64,000 nt of DNA from Thermoplasmatota archaeon. Its GTDB lineage: Archaea; Thermoplasmatota; E2; JACPAO01; JAHFTW01. This document shows positions 41,708 to 64,000 of this stretch, piece after piece; the stretch's first letter is position 1, and every line of letters starts with the position of its first letter. The translations under genes were made by a program, and so were the position numbers. The notes under the pieces were generated by a model that was not told the origin of the DNA, searched no databases, and saw only the letters and a program-made list of their open reading frames with translations. Location of the stretch: positions 18,409 to 82,408 of the forward strand of contig JBBSVQ010000007.1 of assembly GCA_038046725.1 (NCBI GenBank), written 5' to 3'.

Positions 41708-41780
41708 GGGCTCGTAGCTCAGCTGGTAGAGCACCCCGTTTGCAACGGGGTGGCCTCGGGTTCAAATCCCGACGAGTCCA
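41708..41780 (+). tRNA. tRNA-Ala (anticodon UGC) in the 16S-23S spacer
   Basis: gggctcgtagctcagctggtagagcaccccgtttgcaacggggtggcctcgggttcaaatcccgacgagtcca. G3:U70 identity pair, anticodon loop UU-UGC-AA. Confidence 0.95.
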
Positions 41781-42065: not shown

Positions 42066-44945
<2,880 letters not shown>

Positions 44946-45103
44946 ATGACTGAATGTCCGATCTAGGAGAACCGACTTCGGTACTCTGCTTCCAAAAGGC
45001 TGCGTATGTATGCGCAGATTCCACAGATTGCAAAACAACATTCCGCAGATTGATTTCTGCGAAATCGTTGGTCCGCGATCTGCGAAATCTGTGCTTCACA
45101 CTC

Positions 45104-45229
<126 letters not shown>

Positions 45230-45371
45230 TCCCTCTCCATCCCTTCGGGGTTGGGGAGGTTAGGCTCCGGCCGCAAGGCCGGGGTCTTCCTATCCATCGT
45301 CCAGGCTGCAATCACCCTGGATTCCTTCCCCCTTGCATCTCGGTCGAGCCACGAAGGCTCCCCTTCCCACC

Positions 45372-51394: not shown

Positions 51395-51934
51395 GTGGTG
51401 GCTGTGGGGCGGGTGAGAGTGATTGTGCCGGCGTCGGGCGCCCATGTCCGCAGCCTCGGCGCCCACATCTTGAGGCTGCAGAACGACGGCCGGAAGGTCG
51501 TCTTCGTCTCAGCCGACCGTCCCTACCATTCCTTGACGCAGGCCCTGCGCGAACACGGGGTCGCCGTCGATGACATCCACTTCGTTGACGCGGTGAGCTC
51601 CCTCAGCGGATCCGCTCCGGCCCACCGGCCGAGCAACGCAACGTTCCTGCCGTCGCCAACGATGCTCGAGATGCTGGCCATGCGCGTCGAACAGGCCGTC
51701 CTGCGGTTCGGTCCAGGGGCGCACATGATTCTGGACTCGCTGGACACCCTGAGCCTGTACAACGGCGCCAACCCCGTGCAAGAGTTCAGCCACTACCTCG
51801 CCAACCGCCTGCGCCTGCACGGCATCAACGGCGACTTCGTTGTCCGCGACGGCCCCAACGGCCGCCAGTTGCACGACAACATCCTTGCCTTCAGTGACGA
51901 CCGCCTCGAGTTGCCCTCTGGAGCCCCCGCATGA
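51395..51934 (+). CDS. P-loop-less KaiC/RecA-like domain protein
   Basis: Colinear with the KaiC single-domain layout. The Walker A position reads VPASGAHV. VVFVSADRPY, IHFVDAVS, HMILDSLDTL (Walker-B-like strand). Paralogue of the C-terminal domain at 25.6-26.2 kb. Confidence 0.55.
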   Translation: MVAVGRVRVIVPASGAHVRSLGAHILRLQNDGRKVVFVSADRPYHSLTQALREHGVAVDDIHFVDAVSSLSGSAPAHRPSNATFLPSPTMLEMLAMRVEQAVLRFGPGAHMILDSLDTLSLYNGANPVQEFSHYLANRLRLHGINGDFVVRDGPNGRQLHDNILAFSDDRLELPSGAPA

Positions 51935-53304
51935 GCCGCCTCTCCCTCCTTTGCGCAGCCGTCGCCCTCGTCCTGGCGGCCCCGATGGTCGTGGGCGCCA
52001 ACGCCGACGTGCATGAGGTGTCCTTCGACCGCATCGAAGCCGTCGCCGTCGCGGACTTCCGCTTCATTCCCTGCCAGGACACCGGCGCCTTCGTTCTCTT
52101 GGAAAACGGGTTCCGTTTCGAGGAGCGGCAACCCGGCACCGGGGACGCTCAACCCTACCCCGGCGGCTATCTGGCCATCGGATGCGGAGAAGCCGCCGTG
52201 ACGCGCACCGCCCCCGCAGGAGCCCGTAGCGTCGAGGTCCTGTTCCAAGGGGACCGCGTCGTCGAGGAGTTCGACGTCCAAGGCAATTCCGTCACCCGGC
52301 CTGGAGTCGCCTTCGACCAGCGCATCGCCTTCCGCAGCGGCAACGCCTCCAGCGACCGCCAGGTGGATTACATGGATCCCGGCGCCGGGTCGCTGCCGAT
52401 GCAGCCCGTCGCGCCGGACAGCTTCCTGCTGGCGCGCAGCGCGGCGACCTTCGACCTGGCGTGGGTGTTCAGTGACCAGAGTTACTTCGTCGGACCGGAC
52501 TTCCCTGACGTCCTGTCCGGCCAGGCCTTCAGCGCGACCGTGCAGAACGTCACCTTGCGCTACCCCGGGTTGCCCGTGGCCAGCAAGGTGACGGACAGCC
52601 TGCAGCGCGAGGGGACGCTGCTCGTCGGCAAGACCCGCATCGCCGCCGACATCTCCGACCCCGAGGCCGGCGACTTGCGCGTCGTGGTTGCCAACGGCCT
52701 CGCCTTCTCGCACCTGCGCGCACCCGACGGCACCAAGTTCGACACCCAGGCCAGCCGCCTCGCGGCGGGGCCCGACGGCTTCGACCGGTCGGCCGTGCTC
52801 GTCGAGACCTTGGAGGACGGCTCCGTCCAAGTCACGGTGCCTCGGGAAGTGCTCACGGACTTCGGGGCCGGCCGCTATACGGTCTCCTTCACCAGCGTGG
52901 GTGCCGTCCACACCTTCCCCTGGTTGATCCCCGTCGCGGTGCTCGTCCTCTTGGCCCCCCTGCCGTTCGCCTTGTTGGCCTACCTGCACGTGCGCCGCTT
53001 CGAGGATGAGGCCTTTGGGGGCTTCCGCCGGTCCGCCCGCAACCTGCGCATCGCGCTCGTCGTCGCCTTCGCCTATTACGTCGCGGTCCTGGTGAGTCAC
53101 TTCGCCGGCTCGCGCCTTGACCTCATGACGGCGTGGCCACTGCCATTCGAGGCGTTCCTGCTTTACCTCCAAGTCGTCATCGCCGTCGGCGCCTTCCTGG
53201 CGCTCTTCGCCGTCGCACGCGAGCTCTACCGCATCACCGTTCCCAAGGCCCTGCCCGACGCCGCTCGGGCCGGCCCTGCCCCCATGCACGAGGACGCCGA
53301 ATGA
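51931..53304 (+). CDS. Membrane protein with about 310-aa extracytoplasmic domain and 3 C-terminal TM helices
   Basis: Signal peptide (LLCAAVALVLAAPMVVGANA). ATGA overlap at both ends with neighbouring genes. Confidence 0.7.
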   Translation: MSRLSLLCAAVALVLAAPMVVGANADVHEVSFDRIEAVAVADFRFIPCQDTGAFVLLENGFRFEERQPGTGDAQPYPGGYLAIGCGEAAVTRTAPAGARSVEVLFQGDRVVEEFDVQGNSVTRPGVAFDQRIAFRSGNASSDRQVDYMDPGAGSLPMQPVAPDSFLLARSAATFDLAWVFSDQSYFVGPDFPDVLSGQAFSATVQNVTLRYPGLPVASKVTDSLQREGTLLVGKTRIAADISDPEAGDLRVVVANGLAFSHLRAPDGTKFDTQASRLAAGPDGFDRSAVLVETLEDGSVQVTVPREVLTDFGAGRYTVSFTSVGAVHTFPWLIPVAVLVLLAPLPFALLAYLHVRRFEDEAFGGFRRSARNLRIALVVAFAYYVAVLVSHFAGSRLDLMTAWPLPFEAFLLYLQVVIAVGAFLALFAVARELYRITVPKALPDAARAGPAPMHEDAE

Positions 53305-54575
53305 CCCCCGAAAAGACCGCCCCGGGTTCCGTGACCATGCAGATGCGACCGGAGCAACTGCTCGAAATCTGGCACCGCGCCAACGACGTCCTGTACGTGC
53401 ATGACCTGGGCGGCCGGTTCCTGGCCGTCAATGCGACGGCGAGCCAAACGTACGGGTACACGCCGGCCGAGTTCCTCGGGATGTCCATCAAGGACCTCGT
53501 TGACCCCGAGCACCTCGGGACGGCCATGGCCAACCTGACCGCCAAGGCAAGCGGCGCCACCGAACAGACCGTCCCCTACGAGTTGTTGACGCGCGCCAAG
53601 GACGGGCGCCCCGTTTGGGTGGAGGTCAGCACGCGCGTCCTCGCCGAAGACGGCCACGCAACGGCAATCCAGGGCTCCGCCCGCGACATCACCAAGCGCA
53701 AGCTAGCCGAAGCCGTGGCGGACCTCGTGCACGAGACCGCGCTCGCCGTGCATGAGGCGCGTTCGCTGGAGGCCGGCATCCAGGCCGTCCTCGGGCGCAT
53801 CGCAACGGTGGCGGGCTGGTCGTACGGCGAGGCCTGGTTCCCGGACGTCGACGGACGGTGCCTCACGCTGGGCCCGCAATGGGTCGGCGGCAACGGCTTG
53901 GAGAAGTTCAGCCGGCTCGCCCGGCAATACCAGTTTGCCCCCGGCGAAGGCGTCCCCGGCCGCATCTGGGCGGACGGCAAGCCGGTGTGGGGCAGCGAAC
54001 TGCCCGGCGAGGCCGACTGCCCCCGTCGTGCTGCGGCCCATGCGGCGGGCCTGCGCACGTTTGCCGCAATCCCCGTCGCCAACGGCGGCCAAGTCGCGGC
54101 AGTCTTGGTCTTCTTCGGCACGCAGGCCCGCCACGAGGACGCGCGCTGGGTGGCTGCGGCCGAGAAGGTCGCGGCGCACCTCGGCGCCTCCATCGGCCGC
54201 CGCCTGGACGTCGAGCGCGTGCGCAGCGCGGGCCGCTTGTTCGCAGCCCAGTTCGAGGCCCTGGGCGACGCGATGCTCATGCTCGATGCCGAGGGCGTTC
54301 CCCGTCAGGCCAACGCGGCGTTCCTGCGCCTGTGCGACGTCACGGTCAGCAGCAACGACGCAGCCGTCCCGCTGACGGAACGCGTCGACGACCTGCCGAA
54401 GTTCCTCGCCGCCGTCACGACGCTGTACGAGGACCGCAGCGCCGGCCGCGACACGGTCAGCTTCGAGGGCCGCAACTTGTGGCGCAACGTTGCCCCGCTG
54501 CGTTCACGCAACGGCACGAGCCTGGGCGTGCTGCTGCAAGTGCGCGAGGACGCTGCAGCGTCCTCGCGAGCATAG
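53301..54575 (+). CDS. Cytoplasmic PAS-GAF(-PAS-like) sensor protein without recognisable output domain
   Basis: PAS: VLYVHDLGGRFLAVNATASQTYGYTPAEFLGMSIKDLV...VWVEVSTRV. GAF-like: IATVAGWSYGEAWF...GEGVPGRIW...AIPV. The C-terminal 110 aa are PAS-like. No HisKA/HATPase. Confidence 0.8.
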   Translation: MTPEKTAPGSVTMQMRPEQLLEIWHRANDVLYVHDLGGRFLAVNATASQTYGYTPAEFLGMSIKDLVDPEHLGTAMANLTAKASGATEQTVPYELLTRAKDGRPVWVEVSTRVLAEDGHATAIQGSARDITKRKLAEAVADLVHETALAVHEARSLEAGIQAVLGRIATVAGWSYGEAWFPDVDGRCLTLGPQWVGGNGLEKFSRLARQYQFAPGEGVPGRIWADGKPVWGSELPGEADCPRRAAAHAAGLRTFAAIPVANGGQVAAVLVFFGTQARHEDARWVAAAEKVAAHLGASIGRRLDVERVRSAGRLFAAQFEALGDAMLMLDAEGVPRQANAAFLRLCDVTVSSNDAAVPLTERVDDLPKFLAAVTTLYEDRSAGRDTVSFEGRNLWRNVAPLRSRNGTSLGVLLQVREDAAASSRA

Positions 54576-54614: not shown

Positions 54615-54644
54615 GTGACGCGACGGACGCGGCCGTCGCGTCAC
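54615..54644. terminator. Perfect 12-bp hairpin between convergent genes
   Basis: gtgacgcgacgg-acgcgg-ccgtcgcgtcac. The right arm overlaps the stop codon of the minus-strand KaiC-like gene. Confidence 0.4.
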
Positions 54645-55435
54645 ACAATCCGTTCCAGCGTCTCGAGGCGGAAGCCCTGCGGCGTGATGTCGTACGTGCT
54701 GACGCCGATGCCGTAGGCGCGGTTCTTGACTTTCTTCACCATGAAGAAGCGCTCGAACGTCGTGCCCTTGCGGGTGACTTCGAGTTCGAGGAGGCAGTCG
54801 GCCAGCAGCTCCAAGCGGCGTTCGGCGGCCACGCCGTGCGCTCCCTTCGACAGCACCCACAGGGCGAGGCTGCCGTTGCGGGACGTGGCGGCCTTGATGG
54901 CCGTGAGTGCTGCGACGACCTCTTCGAGGGAGTGGTGGTTGAGGAAAAAGTCGAGGCTGTGCACGACGACGCGGTCCGGCGGCCGGATGCGCGACTGGAC
55001 GCCGACGAGGCGCTGCAGGTAGTCGGCGCCGCCTCCTGGCTTGCCTGGTGCCGGCTTGGCTTGGCGCAGGTAATCCATGGAGTCGGCGCCCTCGAGGAGC
55101 CGGCGCGGGTCCATGCGCGGGCGCTCGTCGGTGGCCTTGCGGCGCTCCTGCGACGCCATCATGCTCTCGGCGAATTCCGTCTGCAGGTCGATGACCTCGA
55201 CGTGGGCGAAGTCCCAGCCGGCTTCCTTGACGGCCTGGCGCACTTCGTTTGCGGACTCGTCCGTCGTGATGTAGGCGACCTTGTCGCCGGGGTTGCCGAC
55301 GCAGAACTGCTTGGCGAAGATCTCGGCTCCGGCGCCGGCGGGGGCGAGCAGGAGGCTCGTGAATCCGCGAGGCAGGCCCCCTTTGAGGAAGGCGTCGAGG
55401 GCTTCGATGCCGGTGCTGACGACGCCGTCCGTCAC
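54641..55435 (-). CDS. KaiC-like protein with degenerate Walker A
   Basis: STGIEALDAFLKGGLPRGFTSLLLAPAGAGAEIFAKQF: KaiC N-terminal pattern, but GxGKT is replaced by GAGAE. The GTG start overlaps the upstream stop (GTGA). Confidence 0.7.
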   Translation of the reverse strand: MTDGVVSTGIEALDAFLKGGLPRGFTSLLLAPAGAGAEIFAKQFCVGNPGDKVAYITTDESANEVRQAVKEAGWDFAHVEVIDLQTEFAESMMASQERRKATDERPRMDPRRLLEGADSMDYLRQAKPAPGKPGGGADYLQRLVGVQSRIRPPDRVVVHSLDFFLNHHSLEEVVAALTAIKAATSRNGSLALWVLSKGAHGVAAERRLELLADCLLELEVTRKGTTFERFFMVKKVKNRAYGIGVSTYDITPQGFRLETLERIV

Positions 55436-56184
55436 GGCGTCACCGCAGTCGTGTCCCCGAACTTCTTCAAGAGGGGGGCCAGGCTGATGCCGTACTCGGA
55501 CAAGTCCATCATGAAGCGGGCGCGGCTGTGCTCGGTTCCGCGCATCTTGATGACCTGCAGGGTGCGCACGAGGTCGTTGTGGCGCTCCAGCTCGGAGAGG
55601 AAAATGATGCCGTCCGCGATGAACTCCTCCACGCCGAACATGCTGTAGCGCAACTCGCGTGGCGGCGTCTCGCTCGTCAGAAACGTCGTGCACCCGAGGC
55701 CGGACAGCATGGCGCCCAGGCGGAAGGTGAAGTCGCGGATGCGGCCCCTGTCCTCGAGGCGTTGGCAGATGGCGGTGATGGAGTCGATGACGAGGCGCTT
55801 GATCTGGAACTCCTTGACGATGGATTCCAGGGCGTCCACGAGGGCGGCACCGTCCTCCATGGAGTACGTGCGCTCCTGCGTGATGCCCATGCGGTGCAGG
55901 ATGGTGCGCAGATCGACGAGGCGGATGGAGCCGTCGCGCAGAAACTTGCCGTCCAGGAAGGCGTACTCCTTGGCGTTTCGTTCCAGGATTGCGACCGGTT
56001 CCGTGACGGAGAGGAACATGCCCTTCTGGCCCTTCTCGGCGCCGTGGGCGAGGAACTCCAGGGCGAGCGTGGTCTTGCCCATGCCGGAGCCCCCGGCGAG
56101 CAGGACGACGTTGCCTTCCGGGATGCCGCCGCGCAGGATCTGGTCCAGCTCCTGGATGCCGGTCTCGCAGCGGTGGATGGTCAT
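55432..56184 (-). CDS. KaiC-like single-domain RecA-superfamily ATPase (FlaH/ArlH-like size and layout)
   Basis: TGIQELDQILRGGIPEGNVVLLAGGSGMGKTTLALEF (intact Walker A), LVIDSITAI (Walker B), LQVIKMRGTEH. 250 aa. Confidence 0.88.
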   Translation of the reverse strand: MTIHRCETGIQELDQILRGGIPEGNVVLLAGGSGMGKTTLALEFLAHGAEKGQKGMFLSVTEPVAILERNAKEYAFLDGKFLRDGSIRLVDLRTILHRMGITQERTYSMEDGAALVDALESIVKEFQIKRLVIDSITAICQRLEDRGRIRDFTFRLGAMLSGLGCTTFLTSETPPRELRYSMFGVEEFIADGIIFLSELERHNDLVRTLQVIKMRGTEHSRARFMMDLSEYGISLAPLLKKFGDTTAVTP

Positions 56185-56224
56185 GCCCGCGCCCTCCTGT
56201 ACCCTTGCGGCTTGTAAGAGTTGC

Positions 56225-57550
56225 TCAGTTGACGGTGGCCTCGGCGTCTACGACGTGCAGACGCACAAGCCAACTGGAAACCCCGGTCGCCCCGCCGGCG
56301 GACAGGGTCAGGGTCGCCGCGTCCCCGGACCCCCCAGAGGCGGCGGCATCCTCGCTGGAGGAGGCCAGGATGCGGTCGGCGAAGAAACCGCGCCAAGCGG
56401 CGGCGTTGCTCGAGTCAAGGGTGAAGGTGGCGCCCGTCACCTCGAACAGGAGGTCCGAGGAGCCGTCGTGCCGCACGGACACGGTAGCCGTGTCACTCCC
56501 GGCGCGCTGGCCGGAGCCGGTCAGGTCCACGACAGTCCAGCGCAGGTGGCCGGTCCCGGTGGTGGCATCGACCTCCAGGTCGAAACCGGGGTCAACGAGG
56601 ACGACGCCGCCGAGCGTGCCCTGGCTGGCGAGCACGGCGCCACCCTCGTAGGCCAAGGTCTGGGAGGGGAAGCGCTGGTAGCGGGGGTCGAAGACGATGC
56701 GGCCGCCCGAGCGGTCCAGGGAATACGTGGTGGCGGCACCGGCCCCCGCGGCATGCTGCAGGCCATCGACGTCCGTCCACACAGCGGCGTAGGTGCCGGC
56801 CACCGTGGCACCGACGGCTCCGTCCGTGACCGTCAGGGTGTAGCCGTCCTCGAGGTCGCGCAAGGCCGAGGCGAAGGCAGGTTGCGCGAGGAGGTCGACG
56901 CTGTACTGGGGGACGGCGATGTCGACGTCGCACAGCAGCGGCACCGTGCGCGTCCCCGTGGCCGCGGTGACCGTCAGGATGATGCCGGGGCCGCCGCACC
57001 CAGCGGGGCTCGCGTCGGCGTCATGCGTCAGGCGGGCGGTGACCGTTGCGCCGGCCCCGTCGTCCGCCACGGCCTCGACCCAGGAGAGGTCGTTGTTGTC
57101 GACGCTGCCCGACTGCAGGCCAAGCGAGAACGCCTCGAGGCCCGTCACATCGGTGATTGGGGCGCCGTTGGCGGGTTCCGCCGGAACGCCGACGGCGACG
57201 CCGTCCTGCAGATGGAGGACGGCGCCCGTGAAGGTCACCTGGACCGCGAATGTCGCGTCCTCGTAGGCCAAGTGCCCCGACGCGGCCGCGCCTTGCAGGA
57301 GGGGCACCTTGGCGGGCGCGAGGTCGAACACCGTCGTCGAGGGTCCAGGGGCGTCTTGGGCCGCCAGGGCGTCGAGGCCGGCCTTGACCTGGCCCATGGC
57401 CTCCTGCGCATCGCCTTGGTGGTTGGCTTCGCGCTCCTGGATCCACACGGGCAGCGTCGTGAAGGTCCAGATGGTCATCGCCGTCGTGAAGAGTGCGACG
57501 AGAAGGACGGCGGAGACCACGCTCGAGACGCCCTCATCGTTGCCGGTCAC
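56225..57550 (-). CDS. Large archaeal type IV pilin-like protein (class III signal peptide)
   Basis: N-terminus MTGNDEGVSSVVSAVLLVALFTTAM matches the archaeal pilin N-terminal (DUF1628-type) pattern. 441 aa, Thr/Ala/Gly-rich beta-type body. GTGA overlap with the upstream pilin-like gene. Confidence 0.75.
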   Translation of the reverse strand: MTGNDEGVSSVVSAVLLVALFTTAMTIWTFTTLPVWIQEREANHQGDAQEAMGQVKAGLDALAAQDAPGPSTTVFDLAPAKVPLLQGAAASGHLAYEDATFAVQVTFTGAVLHLQDGVAVGVPAEPANGAPITDVTGLEAFSLGLQSGSVDNNDLSWVEAVADDGAGATVTARLTHDADASPAGCGGPGIILTVTAATGTRTVPLLCDVDIAVPQYSVDLLAQPAFASALRDLEDGYTLTVTDGAVGATVAGTYAAVWTDVDGLQHAAGAGAATTYSLDRSGGRIVFDPRYQRFPSQTLAYEGGAVLASQGTLGGVVLVDPGFDLEVDATTGTGHLRWTVVDLTGSGQRAGSDTATVSVRHDGSSDLLFEVTGATFTLDSSNAAAWRGFFADRILASSSEDAAASGGSGDAATLTLSAGGATGVSSWLVRLHVVDAEATVN

Positions 57551-59232
57551 AAGGTCACCACGCGGACCGTGTCAAGAAGGAGGCTGCCTTGCGTCGTGCT
57601 GGTTGGAGTGAGGTCGACGAGCCGGATGCGCGGGGCCCCGCCGTTGTACTCCGCCGTCGTGAGGGCGTGGGTGAAGGTCGCGACGGACGCCGAGGACAAG
57701 GTGCCTCGCGTGGTGTAGCTTGCGCCGTTCCAGACCTGGACCTCGAAGGTCTCGCCCGCCGTACGGTAGACGAGTTCGAGCGTCTCGCTCGAGCCGTCCG
57801 GGACGCCGGCGAGGTCCATCGTGACGTCAAGCGTGTAGGCCGGAGTGAAGGCAACCTCGACCCAGGCTTGGTCGACACGCCAAGTCTCCCCCGTCGCGCC
57901 GGCTCGGATGCTGGTGAGGCGGACTTCGAGGTCCTGGATGTCGGTCCACGTCCAGGAGCCGCCGCCCGGTCGCGCCGAGGTGACGATCCATTCAATCTGC
58001 GAGTCTGACGATGTCGCGGTGCGCGTGGGAGACGTCGTGCCGCAGGTGTTGTCGAAGCAGGCGCCCAGGGTGAAGCCGTCCGCCCCGTTTTGGCCCAAAA
58101 TGGACACGTCGGCGCGCAACGTGACGGCGGTGATTGTGCCCGTGGAGAGGGTGGGGTTGACGAGCGTGAGTTGGAGGTCGCGGTTGGCGCTCGTCGTCGT
58201 CGCGTACGACGCGTCGTCGAGGAACGTGTTCGCTGTGCCACTCCATTGGGCCGTCGTCCGGCTGGACACGCCGTTGGCCGCCAGCGTCAGTGGGCTTGAC
58301 CCCGTTGCGCCTTCAAGGACGGTTGCCTCTGCCCCGCCATCATCGCCGTCTTGGGCCGCCGCGAACGCGGCGACTGAACCCGCCGTGTCCGTGTGCGCCG
58401 AGACGTAGGTGATGAGGGTGACGGCCTCGATGAGTTCATCCTGGGAGCCGGGCGATGCGGCCAGGTTGCCGTTGAGGTCCTGCATGCCGGAGACTTGAAG
58501 GCCCAACGTCTGGCCGCCCAGGAGGTTCCAGGACTGCGCGGGCACGTCGGCGCTCCACTGGTTCGCCCCCAAGGGCGCCATGGCTCCGACGGTCGTGTAG
58601 GATGGCCCGCTGCCGTCGTCGATGCGGAAAGCCAGCGAGGGGGCGACGCTGTCGTCAATGCCCACGCAGTCGTCAGCAAGCGTCGCCGTCACCGTCACGG
58701 CCCCCGTCGTCGTGCTGAGGACGTCGGCGGGGGAAAGGGTCCAGGCAGCCACCGTCGGGGCCGTGCCGTCGAGCGGGCAGACACTGAACTCGCCGCGTTC
58801 GCCTTCATCAGCCAGAAGGGTGGAGGAGGCAATCACGGCGGCGCCGAGGATGGTGCGCTCCTGCAGCAGGCAGCTGCGCGACGGGTCCGGGGGCGAGGGG
58901 CCGGACAGGCATAGGCTGTCGCCGATGCGCCACGTCCTGCCGTCCGCGACCTGGTCGGCGACGGCCGTGAGGTCGTAGCGCACCTCGAAGCCGTCGACGT
59001 TGAGGACGAGTTCCCCGTTCGACAAGGCAATGGCCTCGCCGCCCCGGTGCACGAGCACGGCGCGCGTGCCTTCCTGCTGCAGCACGAGGTCGGCTTGGGG
59101 GGCGGGGGCATTTGACCGCAATTCGCCGAGGACGACGAAGCTGATGCCGCCGAAGACCGCCACCGTGATGGCCAGCATGAGGATGGTTCCGACGACGCTT
59201 GAGACTCCCTGCTCACCTGCGCCAGCGTTCAC
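57547..59232 (-). CDS. Large archaeal type IV pilin-like protein (class III signal peptide, DUF1628-type N-domain)
   Basis: MNAGAGEQGVSSVVGTILMLAITVAVFGG followed by the LVLQQEG...VLVHRGGEAI...WRIGD pilin-N domain. 561 aa. Confidence 0.8.
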   Translation of the reverse strand: MNAGAGEQGVSSVVGTILMLAITVAVFGGISFVVLGELRSNAPAPQADLVLQQEGTRAVLVHRGGEAIALSNGELVLNVDGFEVRYDLTAVADQVADGRTWRIGDSLCLSGPSPPDPSRSCLLQERTILGAAVIASSTLLADEGERGEFSVCPLDGTAPTVAAWTLSPADVLSTTTGAVTVTATLADDCVGIDDSVAPSLAFRIDDGSGPSYTTVGAMAPLGANQWSADVPAQSWNLLGGQTLGLQVSGMQDLNGNLAASPGSQDELIEAVTLITYVSAHTDTAGSVAAFAAAQDGDDGGAEATVLEGATGSSPLTLAANGVSSRTTAQWSGTANTFLDDASYATTTSANRDLQLTLVNPTLSTGTITAVTLRADVSILGQNGADGFTLGACFDNTCGTTSPTRTATSSDSQIEWIVTSARPGGGSWTWTDIQDLEVRLTSIRAGATGETWRVDQAWVEVAFTPAYTLDVTMDLAGVPDGSSETLELVYRTAGETFEVQVWNGASYTTRGTLSSASVATFTHALTTAEYNGGAPRIRLVDLTPTSTTQGSLLLDTVRVVTL

Positions 59233-59339
59233 GACCCAGCCTCCACCCTTTGGTCGGCCATGGGCCTAAAAGGCTTGCCTCATCAACCCGTGCCCACGGC
59301 CCCCTCTCAGCGGTGCGGCATCCGAAGGGTCATACCCCG

Positions 59340-60368
59340 GTGCCCAGTGAGCAACGCGTGGACGAGCCGGCCGAGGACACCGAGTCTGTGCTCGCCGCCT
59401 ACCGCGAGCGCAAACGCAAGGCCCTGGAGGCTGCCCGCGGCTCCGGCCTTGCCGAGGCGGCGCCCGCCCCCGATGCCCCCGTTCCAACGCGCGCCCTCAA
59501 TTCTGCCGTCGCCCCGCCCGTGGCTCCACCTGAGCCGCCCCAACAGGCCCCCGTCCAGGTGCCTGAACGCGAAGTCCTCCCCGCCGCGCCGGTGCAGGAG
59601 GATTGGGGGTCGCGCTCGCTTGAGGTGCAGCGGCCGGCGCCCATCTCCGTCCCTGGCGCGACCCTGAGCCCGCTCGGCCCCGTGCTGCGGTTGTCGGAGG
59701 CCCTCCTGAAGGACACCAAGGTGTCACTGCGGGGATCCCCCCGGGCCCGCGTGGCCGGCGTGACGATGCTGCTGCTTGGCCTGGGGTTGGCCGTGCTCGA
59801 GCGCCGACAAGCCGCCGTCGGTGCGCCCATCAATGGGCTCGACCTCGCCGCAGTCGCCCTTGCCTCCGTCGGCTTGGTGACGGCCGTCGTCGGCATGCTG
59901 TGGCCGCGCAACCGTCGCCTCGCCGTGCGCCTGGCGGCCAGCCAAAAGGAGGAGTGGCAACGAATCCAAGGCGAAACGCGCCGCCTGCAGGTCCAGTCGC
60001 GCATCGGCTTGGGGCTCACCATTGTCGGCCTCCTCACCCTCGTTGCGGGGTATGCCTTGCTGTCCCTGGGGATCCTCGCCGCCGGTGCCGCCATTGCAGG
60101 CGTCGGAATCCCCGTTCTCGTCATCGCCCAGGTGCGCCGCAGCCTGGCGCGCCGCCTGTACGTCCAGACCCTGGTCTTGAGCGGCCTCGAGGCCTCCGGC
60201 ATCGGCGGTGCCGCCCCCGACGGGCGCGTGCAACCCGTCATCATCGCCCTCGACCGTCTCCTTGGCGCGCTTCCGGAAGCGGAGGTCCAAGCCTTCCTGG
60301 CCACGCCGCAAGCGCGGGCCTACCTCGAACTGGTGGACGAGGCGACGAGGTCGCAGCGTGGACCCTGA
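59340..60368 (+). CDS. Membrane protein with Pro/Ala-rich N-terminal region and 4 TM helices (start uncertain)
   Basis: GTG at 59340 chosen to avoid overlapping the divergent pilin-like start at 59232. High GC3 in frame. No family recognised. Confidence 0.5.
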   Translation: MPSEQRVDEPAEDTESVLAAYRERKRKALEAARGSGLAEAAPAPDAPVPTRALNSAVAPPVAPPEPPQQAPVQVPEREVLPAAPVQEDWGSRSLEVQRPAPISVPGATLSPLGPVLRLSEALLKDTKVSLRGSPRARVAGVTMLLLGLGLAVLERRQAAVGAPINGLDLAAVALASVGLVTAVVGMLWPRNRRLAVRLAASQKEEWQRIQGETRRLQVQSRIGLGLTIVGLLTLVAGYALLSLGILAAGAAIAGVGIPVLVIAQVRRSLARRLYVQTLVLSGLEASGIGGAAPDGRVQPVIIALDRLLGALPEAEVQAFLATPQARAYLELVDEATRSQRGP

Positions 60369-62328
60369 CGACGCGGCCGAGGAGAGGCCCGGCCTGGCCG
60401 CGCGCCTGCGCGAAGCCGGCAACGCCGACGACGCGGCCGTGGCGCGTGCGCGCGCGCACAAGGCTGGCCTGGCGGAGCGCATGCGCGCCATGGTGGCGGA
60501 CGGCGGCGTGGAGCCGGTTGCGGCCGTCGCGGACCTCGGCACGACGACGTCGCGTGCCGATGTGGCGCCCGTCGAGCCCGAGGTCGCGACGTTCGCGCAG
60601 CGGCTGCGCGGCGGCAAGGCTGCTCCGGCCGCCCTGTTCGAGCGCGCGGCGCAGGCTCCAGCGCGCAACGAATCCCCTTCGGATTCCGCTCGCGCCCCCG
60701 CTGGCGTTCCGCGTGCACAACCCCCGCCGGCGCGGGTCCAGCCGGCAGCCACCACGCGCATGGTGCGCTGGTTCCTCGGGCGCGAGGAGCAAACGGCGGG
60801 CGAGGGCCCGGTCACGCCGATTCCTCCGCTGGAAGCCGGTTGGGAGCAGGTGGACTTCTACGACCTCGACCCGCCCTTCTCGTTCGTGCGCATCGTGCGC
60901 CAGAGCGACAACGGGCAGTTGCGCTACGAGGCCATCGAGCCCGTGCTGTCGGAGCGTGAACAACGCACCTTCGAGTTCGTGCAGGACGCCCTGGTGCGCG
61001 GCCTGAACATCGACCCGGGGCCGATGAAGCCGGAGCAGCGCGAGGGGTACCTGCTTGGGGCGGTGCGCCAGATCCTGAAGGACTACCGCATCCGCCTCGA
61101 CACCCGGGAGCAACTGCGCGTCGAGTACTACCTGCGCCGCGACTTCCTTGGGCTCGGAACAATCCATTCCGTCATGGTGGACCCGCGCATCGAGGACATC
61201 TCGTGCGACGGGGCCGCGGAGCCGCTCTTCATCTTCCACCGCGAACACGAATCCATCCCGTCCAACATCCGCTTCCGCTCCGACGGCGAGCTCGACGCTT
61301 TCGTCATCCGCCTGGCGCAGCGCTCCGGCAAGGCCATCTCCATCTCCGACCCCATCCTGGACGCAGCCCTCCCGGACGGGTCTCGCCTGCAGGCGACGTT
61401 GGGTCGCGAGGTGACGCAGAACGGATCCACGTTCACCATCCGGCGCTTCAAGCCCGACCCGTTCACGCCGCTCGACCTGGTGCGCTTCGGGACCATGAGC
61501 ATCGACATGCTGACGTGGTTCTGGCTCACCGTCGAAGCCGGCCAATCGCTCATTTTCTCGGGTGGAACGGCCTCGGGCAAGACGACGGGCCTGAACGCCA
61601 TCGCCCAATTCATCCCGCCCCAGGCAAAAGTGGTGTCCATCGAGGACACGCGCGAAGTCAACCTGCCGCACCACAACTGGATCAAGGCCGTCACGCGCAG
61701 CGGATCGACGTCCGAGGGCACGGGGGAGATCGGCATGTTCGACCTGCTCAAGGCGTCGCTGCGCCAGCGCCCGGAATACATCCTCGTCGGTGAAGTGCGT
61801 GGCATCGAGGCGACGGTCGCGTTCCAGGCCATGGCGACCGGCCACACGGTGTACTCGACGATGCACGCCGACTCAGCGCGCTCCGTCGTCTATCGGTTGG
61901 AGAACGACCCCATCAACGTCCCGCGCCTGGTGCTGCAGGCCCTCGACATCATCGCCATCCAGGCCCAAGTCCGCTACAAGGGCAAGCGCGTGCGCCGCGT
62001 CAAGGAAATCGTCGAACTCGTCGGCATGGACCCGTCGACGAAGGAGATTCTCACGAACACCGTGTTCAAGTGGGACGCGGCGAACGACACGTTCGAGATG
62101 GGCGCGCGCTCGTACCTCATCGACGACATCGCCAGCGACCGCAACTGGAGCAAGGCGCGCATGGCCGAGGAGCAGGCGAACCGCCGCCGCGTCCTGCAAT
62201 GGATGATTGACCAGGGGTACCGCGACGTGCGCGAGATCACGGCCGTCGTGCAGGCCTACTACCGCGACCCAGCCTCCGTCCTGCAACGCATCGCCGCCTC
62301 CCCAGCCGCTCCGGGGGCCAAGGCGTGA
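60358..62328 (+). CDS. Type II/IV secretion-family ATPase (FlaI/PilB/VirB11-like) with N-terminal Ala-rich extension
   Basis: FSGGTASGKTTGLNAI Walker A, EDTREV Asp box, YILVGEVRG Walker B, TGHTVYSTMHA His box. GTG at 60358, alternative ATG at 60760. Confidence 0.9.
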   Translation: MDPDDAAEERPGLAARLREAGNADDAAVARARAHKAGLAERMRAMVADGGVEPVAAVADLGTTTSRADVAPVEPEVATFAQRLRGGKAAPAALFERAAQAPARNESPSDSARAPAGVPRAQPPPARVQPAATTRMVRWFLGREEQTAGEGPVTPIPPLEAGWEQVDFYDLDPPFSFVRIVRQSDNGQLRYEAIEPVLSEREQRTFEFVQDALVRGLNIDPGPMKPEQREGYLLGAVRQILKDYRIRLDTREQLRVEYYLRRDFLGLGTIHSVMVDPRIEDISCDGAAEPLFIFHREHESIPSNIRFRSDGELDAFVIRLAQRSGKAISISDPILDAALPDGSRLQATLGREVTQNGSTFTIRRFKPDPFTPLDLVRFGTMSIDMLTWFWLTVEAGQSLIFSGGTASGKTTGLNAIAQFIPPQAKVVSIEDTREVNLPHHNWIKAVTRSGSTSEGTGEIGMFDLLKASLRQRPEYILVGEVRGIEATVAFQAMATGHTVYSTMHADSARSVVYRLENDPINVPRLVLQALDIIAIQAQVRYKGKRVRRVKEIVELVGMDPSTKEILTNTVFKWDAANDTFEMGARSYLIDDIASDRNWSKARMAEEQANRRRVLQWMIDQGYRDVREITAVVQAYYRDPASVLQRIAASPAAPGAKA

Positions 62329-63251
62329 GCGGCACGGCGGCCGCCGAGGGGGAGGCGCCCCCGCCGGTCGCCACCATCGGGCCAACGGCGTTCGAGCGCC
62401 TGTGCGGCCGCTGGTTCGGCAGCGCCGGCGCCCGCAACCTTGCCAATCATCCGTTGCTGGGAATCCGGCTGGCCCAGGCGCGCAACCCGCTCGTGCCCTC
62501 CGTGTACCTCGCCTCCGTGTACGGCCAGGTCGGAGTCGCGGTCCTCGTCGGCCTCCTTCCATTGGTCATCGCTCTCGTGCTCGCGGGGGGCCCCGTTGCC
62601 CTCGGCGTGCGCTGGATCGTCCCCTTGACGGGCCTGCCGGGCTTGCTGGCCACGGCGACCTACGCGTGGGGCATGCTGCGCCCCGACCTGGAAGCCAAGG
62701 CGCGGCGGCGCGACGTGGAATCGCACCTTCCGTACGCGCTCAACTTCATGGCCGCATTGGCGTCGGCCGGCGTGGTCCCCGTCGAGGTCTTCGGGGCCCT
62801 CGGTTCGCAACGGGTGTATGGCGAAATGGCGGCGGAGGCCAACCTCATCTACCGCGACACGAAGCTGTTCTCGCGCGACCTCGTCACGGCGTTGCAGGCC
62901 GCGGCGCGGCGCAGCCCAAGCCAGCAGCTCGAGGAGTTCCTGCAGGGCGCCGTCAGCACGATCACGTCGGGCGGCGACCTGAAAACGTACCTCCTTGCCA
63001 AGGCTGAGCAGTTCGCGCAGGAGAACCGCCGCGAGCAGAAGGCGTTCCTGGAATCGCTGGGGGTCATGGCCGAGTCCTACGTCGTCGTCGCCGCGGCGGC
63101 GCCACTGTTCCTGCTCGTGATCCTGTCCGTCATGATGCTGGTCAGCGAGGGCCTCGACCCCACGTTCATGCTCAACATCCTCGTGCTCGTGGCCTTGCCC
63201 GTCATCCACAGCATGTTCGCCTACATCCTGCGCACCATGAGGCCCGATTGA
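62325..63251 (+). CDS. T2SSF-domain platform protein (FlaJ/TadC-like, single domain)
   Basis: LPYALNFMAALASAGVVPVEVF...LQGAVSTITSGGDL...LGVMAESYVV is a T2SSF domain. GTGA overlap with the ATPase gene. Confidence 0.85.
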   Translation: MSGTAAAEGEAPPPVATIGPTAFERLCGRWFGSAGARNLANHPLLGIRLAQARNPLVPSVYLASVYGQVGVAVLVGLLPLVIALVLAGGPVALGVRWIVPLTGLPGLLATATYAWGMLRPDLEAKARRRDVESHLPYALNFMAALASAGVVPVEVFGALGSQRVYGEMAAEANLIYRDTKLFSRDLVTALQAAARRSPSQQLEEFLQGAVSTITSGGDLKTYLLAKAEQFAQENRREQKAFLESLGVMAESYVVVAAAAPLFLLVILSVMMLVSEGLDPTFMLNILVLVALPVIHSMFAYILRTMRPD

Positions 63252-64000
63252 TGCCCGAAGCATCCCTTCCCGCGCCCCGCGGTCCGCGCCCGTCGTGGGC
63301 CGTCGGCCTCCTCGTGCTCGGGGTTGCCGCGGTGCTGTGCGGAGCGGGTGCCGCCGTGACGGAAGGCACGCTGCGCCGCGTGCTTCTCGTTCTCCTCTTC
63401 GCGACGGCGATTGCCGTTGCCTGGCTCGCCTCGGGCCGTTTCATCGAACGGCCACCGAGCACCGTCGTTGGTGGCGCGGGCTACACGGCGCCGCGCACCG
63501 GCTTCGAGAAGGTCCTGCATTCCGTCCTGAGCCTGCTCTACAACGCCGGCATCATGATCGTCGTCTTCGCGGCCCTGCTGCGCTTGAAACTGGTCCTGCT
63601 CGAATTCCCCGCCATCGTGACGGCCTGGTTCCCGGTCGTCGTCGGCGGCTACGTGGCGTTGCTGGCCGTCGCCGCTGAACGACGCATCCTCGAACAGGGC
63701 GGCGTCCTGCGCACATGGTACACCCGCGCCCACGGCTGGGTGCTGGCCGGCATCAGCGTCCCCATCCTGGCCGCCGGGCTCATTCTCGCCATCGTTGGCG
63801 AAGTCGAAAGCGGCGGCGTGCGCTACCTCGTCGAAGACGACTTGGTCGTGCTCGTCCTGGTCGGCGTCATGGGCGTCGGGACGCAGCTCTTCCTTGCTGC
63901 GAACCTGCCCACCATGTTCGACTTGGCCACGGCGTTCCTGCGCGTCGTCACGACGCGGCGACGCGTGGGCGACACGCCACCCTTCGTGTATGCCGCGGTC
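63251..64000 (+). CDS. Multi-pass membrane protein, 3-prime end outside window (possible second platform subunit)
   Basis: ATG at 63251 overlaps the upstream TGA by 1 nt. The frame is open to the window edge. My own translation gives at least six hydrophobic helices. Not in the ORF track because no stop is reached. Confidence 0.6.
   Translation, partial: MPEASLPAPRGPRPSWAVGLLVLGVAAVLCGAGAAVTEGTLRRVLLVLLFATAIAVAWLASGRFIERPPSTVVGGAGYTAPRTGFEKVLHSVLSLLYNAGIMIVVFAALLRLKLVLLEFPAIVTAWFPVVVGGYVALLAVAAERRILEQGGVLRTWYTRAHGWVLAGISVPILAAGLILAIVGEVESGGVRYLVEDDLVVLVLVGVMGVGTQLFLAANLPTMFDLATAFLRVVTTRRRVGDTPPFVYAAV

What the first reader, a model, noticed from the sequence alone, without database searches (positions are those of the whole stretch)
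55432..64000. Type IV pilus-like locus with two giant pilin-like proteins and embedded KaiC-like genes, but no archaellin-type genes
Two divergent operons are present. On the plus strand: a Pro/Ala-rich membrane protein, a FlaI/PilB-type ATPase, a single-domain T2SSF protein, then a further multi-pass membrane protein running off the window (possible split platform). On the minus strand: two very large (561 and 441 aa) proteins with class III signal peptides (GEQGVSSVVGTILMLAITV, NDEGVSSVVSAVLLVALF), followed by two KaiC-like genes. Nearly all junctions are 1-11-nt overlaps. A FlaH-like KaiC ATPase is a hallmark of archaella, yet no archaellin, FlaF/G or FlaCDE-type genes are visible here, and the pilin-like proteins are far larger than normal pilins. 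This could be a distinct KaiC-regulated surface filament or adhesin system.
Basis: partly seen in the sequence, partly recalled or inferred. Interest (0 to 1): 0.65.

Follow-up and report, generated by a model that had tools for sequence, protein, structure and literature searches.

The report
Archaeal pilus locus with KaiC regulators
This is a real, conserved type IV pilus (adhesion filament) gene cluster of an uncultured Thermoplasmatota archaeon, not a swimming archaellum, and it combines parts that have each been described before (split platform, large minor pilins, KaiC-type regulator genes), so it is a lineage-specific variant rather than a new kind of machine.

Summary
On the plus strand lie a 4-TM accessory membrane protein, a secretion ATPase and a platform protein split over two genes. 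On the minus strand lie two large pilin-like proteins with class III-type N-termini, an intact single-domain KaiC-like ATPase and a Walker-A-degenerate paralogue (54641-55435, just outside the stated start).

It is not an archaellum. The ATPase scores 422 bits on NCBI's FlaI model (cut-off 550). A true FlaI scores 620 and the non-archaellar A. fulgidus GspE scores 430. The ATPase carries a PilB3-type C-terminal domain. The KaiC proteins are not ArlH (about 34 bits against a 215 cut-off). In related genomes the operon ends after the second platform gene, with no archaellin, ArlF/G or ArlC/D/E genes nearby.

The eight-gene core recurs in six independent Thermoplasmatota loci. In one of them the KaiC pair, DUF7504 and PAS/GAF genes have moved to the other side of the machinery operon yet stay linked.

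Published work already covers KaiC and inactivated-KaiC neighbours of euryarchaeal pilus loci, 250-550 aa minor pilins, and split platforms (Makarova 2016; Cuniculiplasma CdiP 2025).

Verdict: a new lineage-specific variant of a known kind, of modest interest. The regulatory role of the KaiC proteins is inferred, not shown.

The parts
57547..59232 (-). Large pilin-like protein A (561 aa). It has a class III-type N-terminus (GEQG|VSSVVGTILMLAITV), a pilin head, and three further beta-sandwich/jelly-roll domains. Probably a minor pilin or tip adhesin.
   Evidence: Pfam Pilin_N, E=3e-11. AlphaFold2 model with pLDDT 83.7: helix 10-37, then all-beta domains. Foldseek matches multi-beta-sandwich, CBM and adhesin proteins. 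Orthologues range from 445 to 1082 aa, and the L027 orthologue carries CARDB.
56225..57550 (-). Large pilin-like protein B (441 aa, DUF7289) with a class III-type N-terminus (NDEG|VSSVVSAVLLVALF). Probably a minor pilin.
   Evidence: Pfam DUF7289, E=1e-9. 4-nt overlap with gene A. Always paired with A in relatives. The AF2 model is of low confidence (pLDDT 57.8) but shows a long N-terminal helix followed by beta strands.
55432..56184 (-). KaiC1: an intact single-domain KaiC-like ATPase (Walker A GGSGMGKTT).
   Evidence: Pfam KaiC, 191.6 bits, full length. Best PDB hits are KaiC CI domains and PH0186. It is the most conserved protein of the locus, 73-97% identical to orthologues.
54641..55435 (-). 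KaiC2: an inactivated KaiC-like paralogue (iKaiC). Walker A is degenerate (APAGAGAE; the Lys-Thr pair is lost) in every orthologue.
   Evidence: Pfam KaiC, 74.7 bits. Alignment A5. 4-nt GTGA overlap with KaiC1.
59233..59357 (.). Divergent intergenic region between the two operons. It presumably holds the promoters and contains an A/T-rich TAAAAG element in otherwise 70% GC DNA.
   Evidence: Sequence read directly. The start of the plus-strand gene was set by orthologue alignment. Promoter function is not tested.
59358..60368 (+). Accessory membrane protein (336 aa from GTG 59358; the ORF opens at 59199). It has a Pro/Ala-rich N-terminus, about 4 TM helices and a conserved C-terminal cytoplasmic domain (RLYVQTLVLSGLE...LDRLLGALPE).
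   Evidence: No Pfam or NCBIfam family. Always the first gene of the machinery operon. Small family: 57 representatives among 1.84 billion. TM prediction.
60358..62328 (+). Secretion/assembly ATPase of the PilB3/afGspE type (656 aa), with a low-complexity N-terminal extension of about 150 aa.
   Evidence: T2SSE plus PilB3_C. PDB best hit 2OAP at 436 bits, against FlaI at 286. FlaI NCBIfam model 422.5 bits, below the 550 cut-off. Controls: FlaI 619.6, afGspE 430.4.
62325..63251 (+). Platform protein, N-terminal half (TadC1/PilC-N; 308 aa, one T2SSF domain).
   Evidence: T2SSF, E=2e-13. Aligns to ArlJ model positions 20-248 of 555.
63251..64000 (+). Platform protein, C-terminal half (TadC2). It carries an extra N-terminal domain of about 8 TM helices. 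The window truncates it; the full length is about 600-620 aa.
   Evidence: The identical contig L001 extends it to at least 607 aa, with T2SSF at 396-521. Aligns to ArlJ model positions 290-538 of 555. TM prediction. Orthologues are 596-621 aa.
53301..54575 (+). Cytoplasmic PAS-GAF-PAS sensor protein with no output domain, convergent with the KaiC genes. Probable ATG at 53301; the ORF opens at 53133.
   Evidence: Pfam PAS_4, GAF_2 and PAS_8. Linked in most relatives. In L030 it moved together with the KaiC pair. Absent from L029.
51931..53304 (+). Membrane-anchored protein (457 aa) with a signal peptide, an extracytoplasmic domain of about 300 aa and 3 C-terminal TM helices. Possibly a sensor.
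   Evidence: No Pfam family. Topology. 4-nt overlaps with both neighbours. Conserved in L003, L026-L029 and L008, absent in L030.
51395..51934 (+). DUF7504 protein (179 aa): a P-loop-less KaiC/RecA-like domain. First gene of the sensor operon.
   Evidence: Pfam DUF7504, E=7e-11, and a weak KaiC hit. Linked in L003, L008, L026, L027, L029 and L030.
54615..54644 (.). Hairpin with a 12-bp perfect stem and a 6-nt loop, between the convergent PAS/GAF and KaiC2 genes. It overlaps the KaiC2 stop codon and may act as a terminator.
   Evidence: Sequence and inverted-repeat scan. Function not tested.

Best explanation
The locus encodes a non-archaellar, euryarchaeal-type (PilB3/afGspE-like, 'clade 2'-like) type IV pilus assembly system of an uncultured Thermoplasmatota archaeon, together with its own regulatory module.

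Proposed mechanism, with shown and inferred steps marked:
1. The two large proteins A and B are inserted into the membrane by their class III-type N-terminal helices. The motif is shown. A prepilin peptidase encoded elsewhere is inferred to cut after the Gly/Ala at -1 ([DE]x[GA]|VSS).
2. The hexameric ATPase (60358-62328) is inferred to dock on a platform made of two half-proteins, TadC1 and TadC2, and on the 4-TM accessory protein. Together they would lift pilins out of the membrane into a filament.
3. A and B are too large and too variable to be the bulk subunit. They are inferred to be minor pilins, forming a priming or tip complex whose beta-sandwich/CARDB/CBM-like domains mediate adhesion.
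4. The filament body would be built from a small PilA-like pilin encoded in trans. Such a gene (120-158 aa, ...EEA|VSPVIGVILMVAITV) lies 1-2 kb beyond TadC2 in two relatives.
5. KaiC1 (active P-loop) and KaiC2 (inactive paralogue), probably as a hetero-oligomer, are inferred to act as an ATP- or phosphorylation-dependent switch. They could bind the ATPase directly, as ArlH does ArlI, or act as a signalling hub. Inputs would come from the DUF7504 / membrane sensor / PAS-GAF operon.
For: - Domain content of the locus.
- The ATPase is nearer to A. fulgidus GspE (436 bits, 46% identity) than to S. acidocaldarius FlaI (286 bits, 38%).
- On the FlaI equivalog model it scores 422.5 bits, below the 550 cut-off. 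Controls: FlaI 619.6, afGspE 430.4.
- PilB3_C lies above Pfam's gathering score in the window ATPase and in L028, but not in afGspE or FlaI.
- The platform halves map to the two halves of the ArlJ/PilC profile.
- The class III motif is conserved in all orthologues and matches that of a bona fide PilA-like pilin in L003 and L029.
- The AF2 model of protein A shows an N-terminal helix plus four beta domains. CARDB is present in one orthologue.
- The eight-gene core is conserved in L003, L026 (same population as L002), L027, L028, L029 and L030, with different outer flanks. In L030 the KaiC pair, DUF7504 and PAS/GAF are relocated downstream of TadC2 but remain linked.
- Cytoplasmic parts are far more conserved (KaiC1 73-97%, ATPase 61-82%) than the surface proteins (34-47%).
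- Literature: KaiC and inactivated-KaiC neighbours of clade-2 pilus loci, two tadC genes, and 250-550 aa minor pilins (PMC4858521). Split platform with remote pilins in Cuniculiplasma CdiP (PMC12448462). The KaiC-like CirA controls motility genes in Haloferax (PMC10983859).
Against: - No major pilin and no prepilin peptidase were found in the 64-kb window.
- No experiment shows a filament, signal-peptide cleavage or KaiC-ATPase contact.
- Position -2 of protein A's signal is Gln rather than a charged residue.
- More distant ATPase relatives (40-48% identity: L010-L012, L020, L021) have no KaiC gene within their flanks. The KaiC link is therefore confined to a narrow lineage.
- Placement in Makarova's 'clade 2' rests on similarity to afGspE and the PilB3_C domain, not on a reference phylogeny.
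- The model of protein B is of low confidence.
Confidence: 0.72

Rival explanations
1. A bindosome- or pseudopilus-like display system. The machinery would assemble no long pilus. It would instead insert and present the two large class III-signal proteins, with their carbohydrate-binding/adhesin-like beta domains, at the cell surface, much as the Sulfolobus Bas system does for sugar-binding proteins.
For: - The only class III substrates encoded in cis are the two large multi-domain proteins.
- Foldseek finds CBM, lectin and adhesin-like folds.
- There is no major pilin in the window.
- Protein A varies from 445 to 1082 aa by domain gain and loss.
Against: - BasE and BasF models score far below their cut-offs (195 against 1000; 46 against 1300).
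- A typical PilA-like small pilin lies next to the homologous locus in L003 and L029.
- DUF7289/Pilin_N proteins of this size are regarded as minor pilins of ordinary PilA-based pili (PMC4858521).
Confidence: 0.15
2. The KaiC-like, DUF7504 and PAS/GAF genes are merely neighbours. They would belong to the general archaeal KaiC signalling network and have no specific role in this pilus system.
For: - KaiC-family genes are very abundant in archaea, and another REC-DUF7504 gene sits 30 kb away in the same window.
- Outer synteny (CarS, helicase) is also conserved among the closest relatives.
- ATPase relatives at 40-48% identity lack KaiC neighbours.
Against: - KaiC1 and KaiC2 follow the pilin genes on the same strand, with a 40-nt gap and then a 4-nt overlap.
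- The pair stays with the locus in L027 and L028, where the flanks differ, and in L030, where it has moved to the other side of the machinery operon.
- Homologous pilin pairs elsewhere sit beside other signalling modules: a Roadblock, GTPase and iKaiC set, or a histidine kinase and response regulator.
Confidence: 0.08
3. A highly divergent archaellum. Proteins A and B would replace the archaellins or ArlF/G, KaiC1 would act as ArlH, and the 4-TM protein would be an ArlX-like scaffold.
For: - FlaI is the best-scoring NCBIfam model for the ATPase (422 bits).
- A KaiC-family protein is present.
- Some database entries name protein A's relatives 'FlaG/FlaF family flagellin'.
Against: - The FlaI score is below the cut-off and equals that of the non-archaellar afGspE.
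- The ArlH model scores 33-35 bits against a 215 cut-off. ArlJ models score 84 bits or less against cut-offs of 400-570.
- There is no Arch_flagellin domain and no ArlC/D/E/F/G/X gene in the window or in the complete relatives' loci.
- The 'FlaG/FlaF' names derive from the shared N-terminal pilin domain only.
Confidence: 0.03

Closest known systems
Euryarchaeal 'clade 2' type IV pilus systems (Haloferax volcanii PilB3-PilC3 with PilA pilins; census of Makarova, Koonin & Albers 2016, PMC4858521)
   Same: - VirB11/T2SSE-family ATPase with a PilB3-type C-terminal domain.
- TadC/PilC platform, often as two tadC genes.
- Large all-beta minor pilins (250-550 aa) encoded in the locus.
- Major PilA-type pilin often encoded in trans.
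- KaiC and inactivated-KaiC genes recorded in the neighbourhood.
   Different: - Here an intact KaiC and an inactive paralogue sit in the same transcription unit as the pilin-like genes.
- The second platform half carries an extra N-terminal domain of about 8 TM helices.
- A lineage-restricted 4-TM protein with no family heads the machinery operon.
- Protein A reaches 1082 aa in relatives.
- Clade membership was not tested by a reference phylogeny.
Cuniculiplasma divulgatum CdiP pilus machinery (Thermoplasmatales; PMC12448462)
   Same: - Same phylum.
- Platform split into N-half and C-half genes (CdiPFa/CdiPFb).
- Filament pilins encoded away from the machinery operon.
- Adhesive, non-twitching pilus.
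   Different: - CdiP has two tandem ATPase genes, an arrangement seen here only in the more distant loci L010 and L011.
- The paper mentions KaiC only once, in a passage not read here, and its description of the CdiP machinery operon names no KaiC-family gene.
- No large pilin-like pair is reported beside the CdiP machinery.
Archaellum motor module ArlH-ArlI-ArlJ
   Same: A KaiC-superfamily protein is encoded together with a T4P-type ATPase and a PilC-like platform. ArlH's ATP-dependent binding to ArlI is the best available analogy for what KaiC1/KaiC2 might do.
   Different: - The ATPase, platform and KaiC proteins all fall well below the Arl equivalog cut-offs.
- There are no archaellins and no ArlF/G, ArlC/D/E or ArlX.
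- The KaiC genes lie with the pilin genes, not next to the ATPase.
Archaeoglobus fulgidus GspE (PDB 2OAP/2OAQ)
   Same: Closest solved structure to the ATPase: 436 bits, about 46% identity across the N-terminal and catalytic domains.
   Different: - The window protein has an extra low-complexity N-terminus of about 150 aa.
- Its C-terminal domain is PilB3_C-positive, a domain Pfam does not detect in afGspE.
Archaeal KaiC-like signalling hubs, including inactivated KaiC (iKaiC) domains and Haloferax CirA (Makarova 2017 as cited in PMC5847659; PMC10983859)
   Same: Single-domain KaiC-like ATPase, P-loop-less paralogues (KaiC2, DUF7504) and PAS/GAF sensors are clustered together. CirA shows that a KaiC-like protein can control a T4P-related surface organelle.
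   Different: - CirA acts on archaellum gene expression.
- No KaiB-like partner or DNA-binding output is seen here.
- No function has been tested for this pair.
Sulfolobus bindosome assembly system (BasEF)
   Same: A T4P-type ATPase and platform handle large non-filament class III-signal proteins.
   Different: BasE and BasF models are far below cut-off (195 against 1000; 46 against 1300). The substrates here are pilin-domain proteins, not solute-binding proteins.

Membership tests
Archaellum (arl/fla operon) | ArlI/FlaI-type motor ATPase (NCBIfam NF058587 equivalog, cut-off 550 bits) | tested here: not met
   Window ATPase scores 422.5 bits. Controls: S. acidocaldarius FlaI 619.6, non-archaellar afGspE 430.4.
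Archaellum (arl/fla operon) | ArlH/FlaH KaiC-like protein (NF052589, cut-off 215 bits) | tested here: not met
   KaiC1 scores 34.6 bits and KaiC2 33.2 bits. No FlaH structure appears among the PDB hits.
Archaellum (arl/fla operon) | Archaellins (ArlA/B) and ArlF/ArlG | tested here: not met
   Proteins A and B hit Pilin_N and DUF7289 only. No such genes occur in the window or within 10 kb of the homologous loci L003 and L026-L030.
Archaellum (arl/fla operon) | ArlC/D/E or ArlX scaffold, and a single two-domain ArlJ | tested here: not met
   No ArlC/D/E/X hits. The platform is split and scores 84 bits or less against ArlJ cut-offs of 400-570.
Archaeal type IV pilus system (euryarchaeal PilB3/clade-2 type) | T2SSE/VirB11-family assembly ATPase with PilB3-type terminal domain | tested here: met
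   T2SSE at 137.6 bits and PilB3_C at 34.1 bits, above the gathering score of 27. Orthologues also hit PilB3_N and PilB3_C.
Archaeal type IV pilus system (euryarchaeal PilB3/clade-2 type) | PilC/TadC platform with two T2SSF domains in total | tested here: met
   One T2SSF domain in each of two adjacent genes. They align to the N- and C-halves of the ArlJ/UpsF profiles.
Archaeal type IV pilus system (euryarchaeal PilB3/clade-2 type) | Pilins with class III signal peptide and hydrophobic N-terminal helix | tested here: met
   Pilin_N domain is present. The conserved [DE]x[GAS]|VSSVVG motif is followed by a TM helix in both proteins and in all orthologues. Cleavage itself cannot be tested here.
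Archaeal type IV pilus system (euryarchaeal PilB3/clade-2 type) | Small PilA-type major pilin | tested here: inconclusive
   None in the 64-kb window. One is present 1-2 kb beyond TadC2 in L003 (158 aa) and L029 (120 aa). The corresponding region of this genome lies outside the window.
Archaeal type IV pilus system (euryarchaeal PilB3/clade-2 type) | Prepilin peptidase PibD/FlaK/EppA in the genome | not testable with these tools
   No GxGD-motif ORF and no Peptidase_A24 hit among the window proteins scanned. The rest of the genome is not available.
Archaeal type IV pilus system (euryarchaeal PilB3/clade-2 type) | Phylogenetic placement of the ATPase in Makarova's clade 2 | not tested
   Only indirect evidence: closest to afGspE and carries the PilB3_C domain. 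No reference set of PilB1-4, ArlI, AapE, UpsE or EpdL sequences was at hand.
KaiC-like ATPase superfamily | RecA-fold KaiC domain with intact Walker A and B | tested here: met
   KaiC1: PF06745 at 191.6 bits over the full length, with GGSGMGKTT and a VIDS Walker B. KaiC2 hits the same family (74.7 bits) but its Walker A is degenerate in all orthologues, which makes it an inactivated KaiC.
Circadian KaiABC oscillator | Two-domain KaiC (CI+CII) with KaiB partner | tested here: not met
   Single-domain proteins. circ_KaiC model scores 113.8 bits against a 546 cut-off. No KaiB/thioredoxin-like gene in the locus.
Bindosome assembly system (Bas) | BasE ATPase and BasF membrane protein | tested here: not met
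   BasE 195 bits against 1000; BasF 45.7 bits against 1300.

The most novel reading that the evidence does not exclude
The KaiC1/iKaiC2 pair would be a dedicated, ArlH-like but independently recruited switch. It would bind this non-rotary pilus motor and gate assembly of an adhesin-tipped pilus in response to the linked PAS/GAF, DUF7504 and membrane-sensor proteins. That would be the first pilus whose motor is under direct KaiC-type, ATP- or phosphorylation-dependent control. It would also suggest that KaiC-motor coupling predates, or arose in parallel with, the archaellum's ArlH-ArlI pair.
Probability: 0.25. Interest if true: 0.6.

Novelty: new variant of a known kind. Interest (0 to 1): 0.33.

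Why it matters
How archaea switch adhesion pili on and off is largely unknown. KaiC-like ATPases are proposed to be central archaeal signalling hubs, but few have an assigned target.

This locus offers a compact, conserved and genetically coherent candidate. It puts an active KaiC, an inactive paralogue, a P-loop-less relative, a PAS/GAF sensor and a membrane sensor next to one pilus machine and its adhesin-like minor pilins.

If the link is functional, it makes the idea that KaiC hubs control T4P machines directly testable, and it gives a comparison point for ArlH-ArlI in the archaellum. Otherwise the locus is an ordinary, if elaborate, member of the euryarchaeal pilus repertoire in an uncultured lineage.

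Tried and rejected
1. Retrieving the source contig beyond 64 kb.
2. Genome-contig scan with the ATPase. It gave one partial Thermoplasmatota MAG locus (L005).
3. Metagenome-contig scans. A2 found nothing. A4 gave 17 ATPase loci, mostly more distant and without KaiC.
4. Structure of the 441-aa protein. pLDDT was 57.8 and Foldseek gave no significant match, so no fold claim is made.
5. Motif scans for further class III signals and for a GxGD prepilin peptidase in the window. Both were negative.
6. The bacterial-type promoter/terminator scan is uninformative for an archaeon.
7. Makarova et al. 2017 (mBio; KaiC hubs) is not held in the library. It is cited only through papers that cite it.
8. The archaellum reading was considered and rejected (see rivals and the membership test).
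9. A split two-domain KaiC (CI+CII) reading was considered. KaiC2 aligns only over its first 75-95 residues to the N-terminal part of KaiC domains. This neither supports nor excludes the idea.

Full report
**Source and setting**

The window is archaeal and about 68% GC. It carries a 16S-tRNAAla-23S-5S operon at 40020-45227. Relatives of its proteins come only from Thermoplasmatota/Thermoplasmata metagenome-assembled genomes.

**Observation**

All but one have coding-type third-position GC of 0.81-0.94. That filter did not return the second KaiC gene, because its ORF was scored from an upstream start. It is supported instead by its Pfam hit, its 4-nt overlap with KaiC1 and its conserved orthologues.

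Minus strand, in order of transcription:
- A 561-aa protein with the archaeal Pilin_N domain (E=3e-11).
- A 441-aa DUF7289 protein (E=1e-9), overlapping the first by 4 nt.
- After a 40-nt gap, a 250-aa KaiC-domain protein (E=2e-56).
- Overlapping that by 4 nt, a second KaiC-like protein of 264 aa at 54641-55435 (E=9e-21). This gene lies just outside the finding's start coordinate.

Plus strand:
- A Pro/Ala-rich membrane protein with four predicted TM helices and no family. Its real start is probably GTG 59358.
- A T2SSE-family ATPase, starting at GTG 60358, an 11-nt overlap.
- A 308-aa protein with one T2SSF domain (4-nt overlap).
- A further membrane protein (1-nt overlap) that runs off the window.

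An identical 3.8-kb public contig (L001) extends that last gene to at least 607 aa. It has about eight N-terminal TM helices, then a T2SSF domain at residues 396-521. The 308-aa protein aligns to positions 20-248 of the 555-position ArlJ profile. The long one aligns to positions 290-538. The platform is therefore genuinely split into an N-half gene and a C-half gene.

**Is it an archaellum?**

No, on four independent counts.
1. The ATPase scores 422.5 bits on NCBI's FlaI equivalog model, whose cut-off is 550. As controls, a truncated S. acidocaldarius FlaI scores 619.6 and the non-archaellar A. fulgidus GspE scores 430.4. By direct comparison the ATPase is nearer to afGspE (436 bits, 46% identity) than to FlaI (286 bits, 38%). 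It carries Pfam's PilB3_C domain above the gathering score, whereas FlaI and afGspE do not.
2. The two KaiC-family proteins score 33-35 bits on the ArlH model (cut-off 215). Their best solved relatives are KaiC CI domains, PH0186 and SSO2452, not FlaH.
3. The pilin-like proteins hit Pilin_N and DUF7289, not the archaellin family.
4. In relatives with complete flanks the machinery operon ends after the second platform gene. What follows is a toxin-antitoxin pair, a Cas4-like gene, methyltransferases or permeases. No ArlB/F/G/C/D/E/X genes follow.

**Conservation**

I recovered further loci through homologues of protein A and of the 4-TM protein. The core has two divergent halves:
- 4-TM protein, ATPase, TadC-N (291-322 aa), TadC-C (596-621 aa).
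- Pilin_N protein, DUF7289 protein.

This core, together with the KaiC1-KaiC2 pair, is present in L003, L026 (the same population as L002), L027, L028, L029 and L030, and partially in L008 and L004. The outer flanks differ between these loci.

In L030 the KaiC pair, a DUF7504 gene and the PAS/GAF gene have moved from beside the pilin genes to the far side of the machinery operon, yet they remain attached to the locus. Linkage that survives a rearrangement is the best evidence here that the KaiC module belongs to the system.

Identity to the window proteins:

| Protein | Identity |
|---|---|
| KaiC1 | 73-97% |
| ATPase | 61-82% |
| TadC-N | 61-88% |
| KaiC2 | 54-91% |
| TadC-C | 49-84% |
| DUF7289 protein | 36-59% |
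| Protein A | 34-47%, often only over the first ~140 residues |

Protein A ranges from 445 to 1082 aa and has a CARDB domain in L027. This pattern, with a conserved cytoplasmic motor and regulators and fast-evolving, domain-shuffled surface proteins, is what one expects of an adhesive surface organelle.

The 4-TM accessory protein family is small and has no names. It has 36 word-index hits and 57 representatives among 1.84 billion at E<=1e-3.

ATPase relatives at 40-48% identity show no KaiC neighbour. They include loci with two tandem ATPases and two short TadC genes (L010, L011), an arrangement like the Cuniculiplasma CdiP machinery. The KaiC link is thus a trait of one lineage.

**The pilin-like proteins**

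Both have a short polar leader, a conserved [DE]-x-[G/A/S] followed by VSSVVG, and a single N-terminal TM helix.

A classic small PilA-like pilin next to the homologous loci in L003 and L029 uses the same site (...EEA|VSPVIGVILMVAITV). The motif is therefore the lineage's normal class III signal.

The AlphaFold2 model of protein A (pLDDT 83.7) shows helix 10-37, a pilin-type beta head reaching about residue 141, and three more beta-sandwich/jelly-roll domains. Foldseek finds only multi-beta-domain proteins such as reelin repeats, CBM51, Vip3/Cry domains and an ice adhesin, all at low TM-score.

The model of protein B is poor (pLDDT 57.8) and gave no significant structural match.

No other class III ORF exists in the window. 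No GxGD-type peptidase motif was found. The other predicted genes of the window that were scanned against Pfam are housekeeping genes or have no family.

**The KaiC module**

KaiC1 has an intact Walker A (GGSGMGKTT) and Walker B. In KaiC2 the Walker A Lys-Thr pair is replaced (APAGAGAE) in every orthologue. It is an anciently inactivated paralogue, the 'iKaiC' of the literature (PMC5847659).

A tightly overlapping operon lies convergent to these genes:
- DUF7504, a P-loop-less KaiC/RecA-like protein.
- A 457-aa protein with a signal peptide, an extracytoplasmic domain and three TM helices.
- A PAS-GAF-PAS protein without an output domain.

More divergent copies of the pilin pair sit beside other signalling sets. 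L007 has Roadblock, a small GTPase and an iKaiC. L006 has a PAS-histidine kinase and a receiver.

**Mechanism**

This is inferred except where marked. The class III proteins are membrane-inserted and trimmed by a peptidase encoded elsewhere. The ATPase hexamer, the two-piece platform and the 4-TM protein extrude a filament whose body is a PilA-type pilin encoded in trans. Proteins A and B act as minor pilins, forming a priming or tip complex with adhesive domains. KaiC1/KaiC2, fed by the sensor operon, switches the motor or the locus on and off. The nearest analogies are ArlH-ArlI (PMC8978795) and CirA (PMC10983859). What is shown is domain content, motif conservation and conserved linkage.

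**Comparison with the known**

Makarova, Koonin and Albers (2016) described euryarchaeal clade-2 pilus loci with these features:
- a VirB11-type ATPase;
- often two tadC genes;
- a signature minor pilin of about 250-550 aa that is prone to duplication;
- major PilA pilins encoded in trans;

Their supplementary table lists inactivated KaiC-like genes next to such ATPases in Archaeoglobus.

The Cuniculiplasma CdiP pilus, from the same phylum, has an experimentally described machinery with a platform split into N- and C-halves and pilins 500 kb away.

What is particular here:
- the KaiC plus iKaiC pair on the pilin transcription unit;
- the 8-TM extension of the C-half platform;
- the family-less 4-TM first gene;
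- the conserved sensor operon.

I therefore rate it a new variant of a known kind, restricted to a narrow uncultured lineage.

**Limits**

- There is no reference phylogeny for the ATPase.
- The rest of the genome is unavailable, so the major pilin, the peptidase and any separate arl operon cannot be checked.
- The equivalence of DUF7289 with arCOG02911 is assumed from size, context and fold type, not tested.
- All functional statements about KaiC are inference.

Noticed in passing
window 25192-26199 (+), with 26196-27008 (+): A response regulator that fuses a receiver domain to a DUF7504 (inactivated KaiC-like) domain. A 270-aa ORF with no family follows, overlapping by 4 nt. It is a second KaiC-superfamily signalling gene in the window, 30 kb from the pilus locus.
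   Followed up: partly
window 35169-39266 (+): Three consecutive large ORFs (511, 430 and 422 aa) with coding-type composition but no Pfam family, immediately upstream of the rRNA operon.
   Followed up: no
window 45333-49643 (+): A 1436-aa superfamily-1 helicase (AAA_11/AAA_12, Upf1-like) with a very long Lys/Ala/Pro/Arg-rich low-complexity C-terminal tail, directly after the 5S rRNA gene. A homologous gene flanks the locus in L002 and L003.
   Followed up: partly
window 4620-5661 (+): A VapB-like antitoxin gene followed by a PIN-domain toxin gene.
   Followed up: no
window 54543-54568 and 54615-54644: Two perfect palindromes (arms of 13 and 12 nt) in the short zone where the PAS/GAF gene and KaiC2 converge. 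They may be bidirectional terminator hairpins.
   Followed up: partly
L003 1491-1967 (-) and L029 16176-16538 (+), with the adjacent genes L003 1-1440 (-) and L029 16619-18283 (+): In two relatives a typical small PilA-like pilin lies 1-2 kb beyond the platform genes, after a Cas4-like nuclease gene. A family-less polytopic membrane protein follows it (554 aa in L029; a 607-aa gene cut by the locus end in L003). This is a candidate major pilin with a possible modification or assembly partner. The same may lie just beyond this window's end.
   Followed up: partly
L007 348-2774 and L006 418-2109: More divergent copies of the Pilin_N/DUF7289 gene pair sit beside other signalling modules. L007 has Roadblock/LC7, a small Ras/Arf-like GTPase and a KaiC-like/DUF7504 protein. 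L006 has a PAS histidine kinase and a receiver. The pilin pair seems to be habitually coupled to signal-transduction genes of varying type.
   Followed up: partly
L010 390-5780 and L011 2-5569: ATPase relatives at 47-48% identity occur as two tandem ATPase genes followed by two short (~300 aa) TadC genes. The arrangement was reported as unique for the Cuniculiplasma CdiP machinery. In L011, weak pilin-like ORFs follow.
   Followed up: partly
window 57547-59232 (-) gene start: The public gene call for this protein (P0001, 543 aa) starts at the internal Met19 and so removes the class III signal. Alignment with orthologues supports the upstream GTG start. Automated annotation would miss the pilin nature of this gene.
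   Followed up: yes
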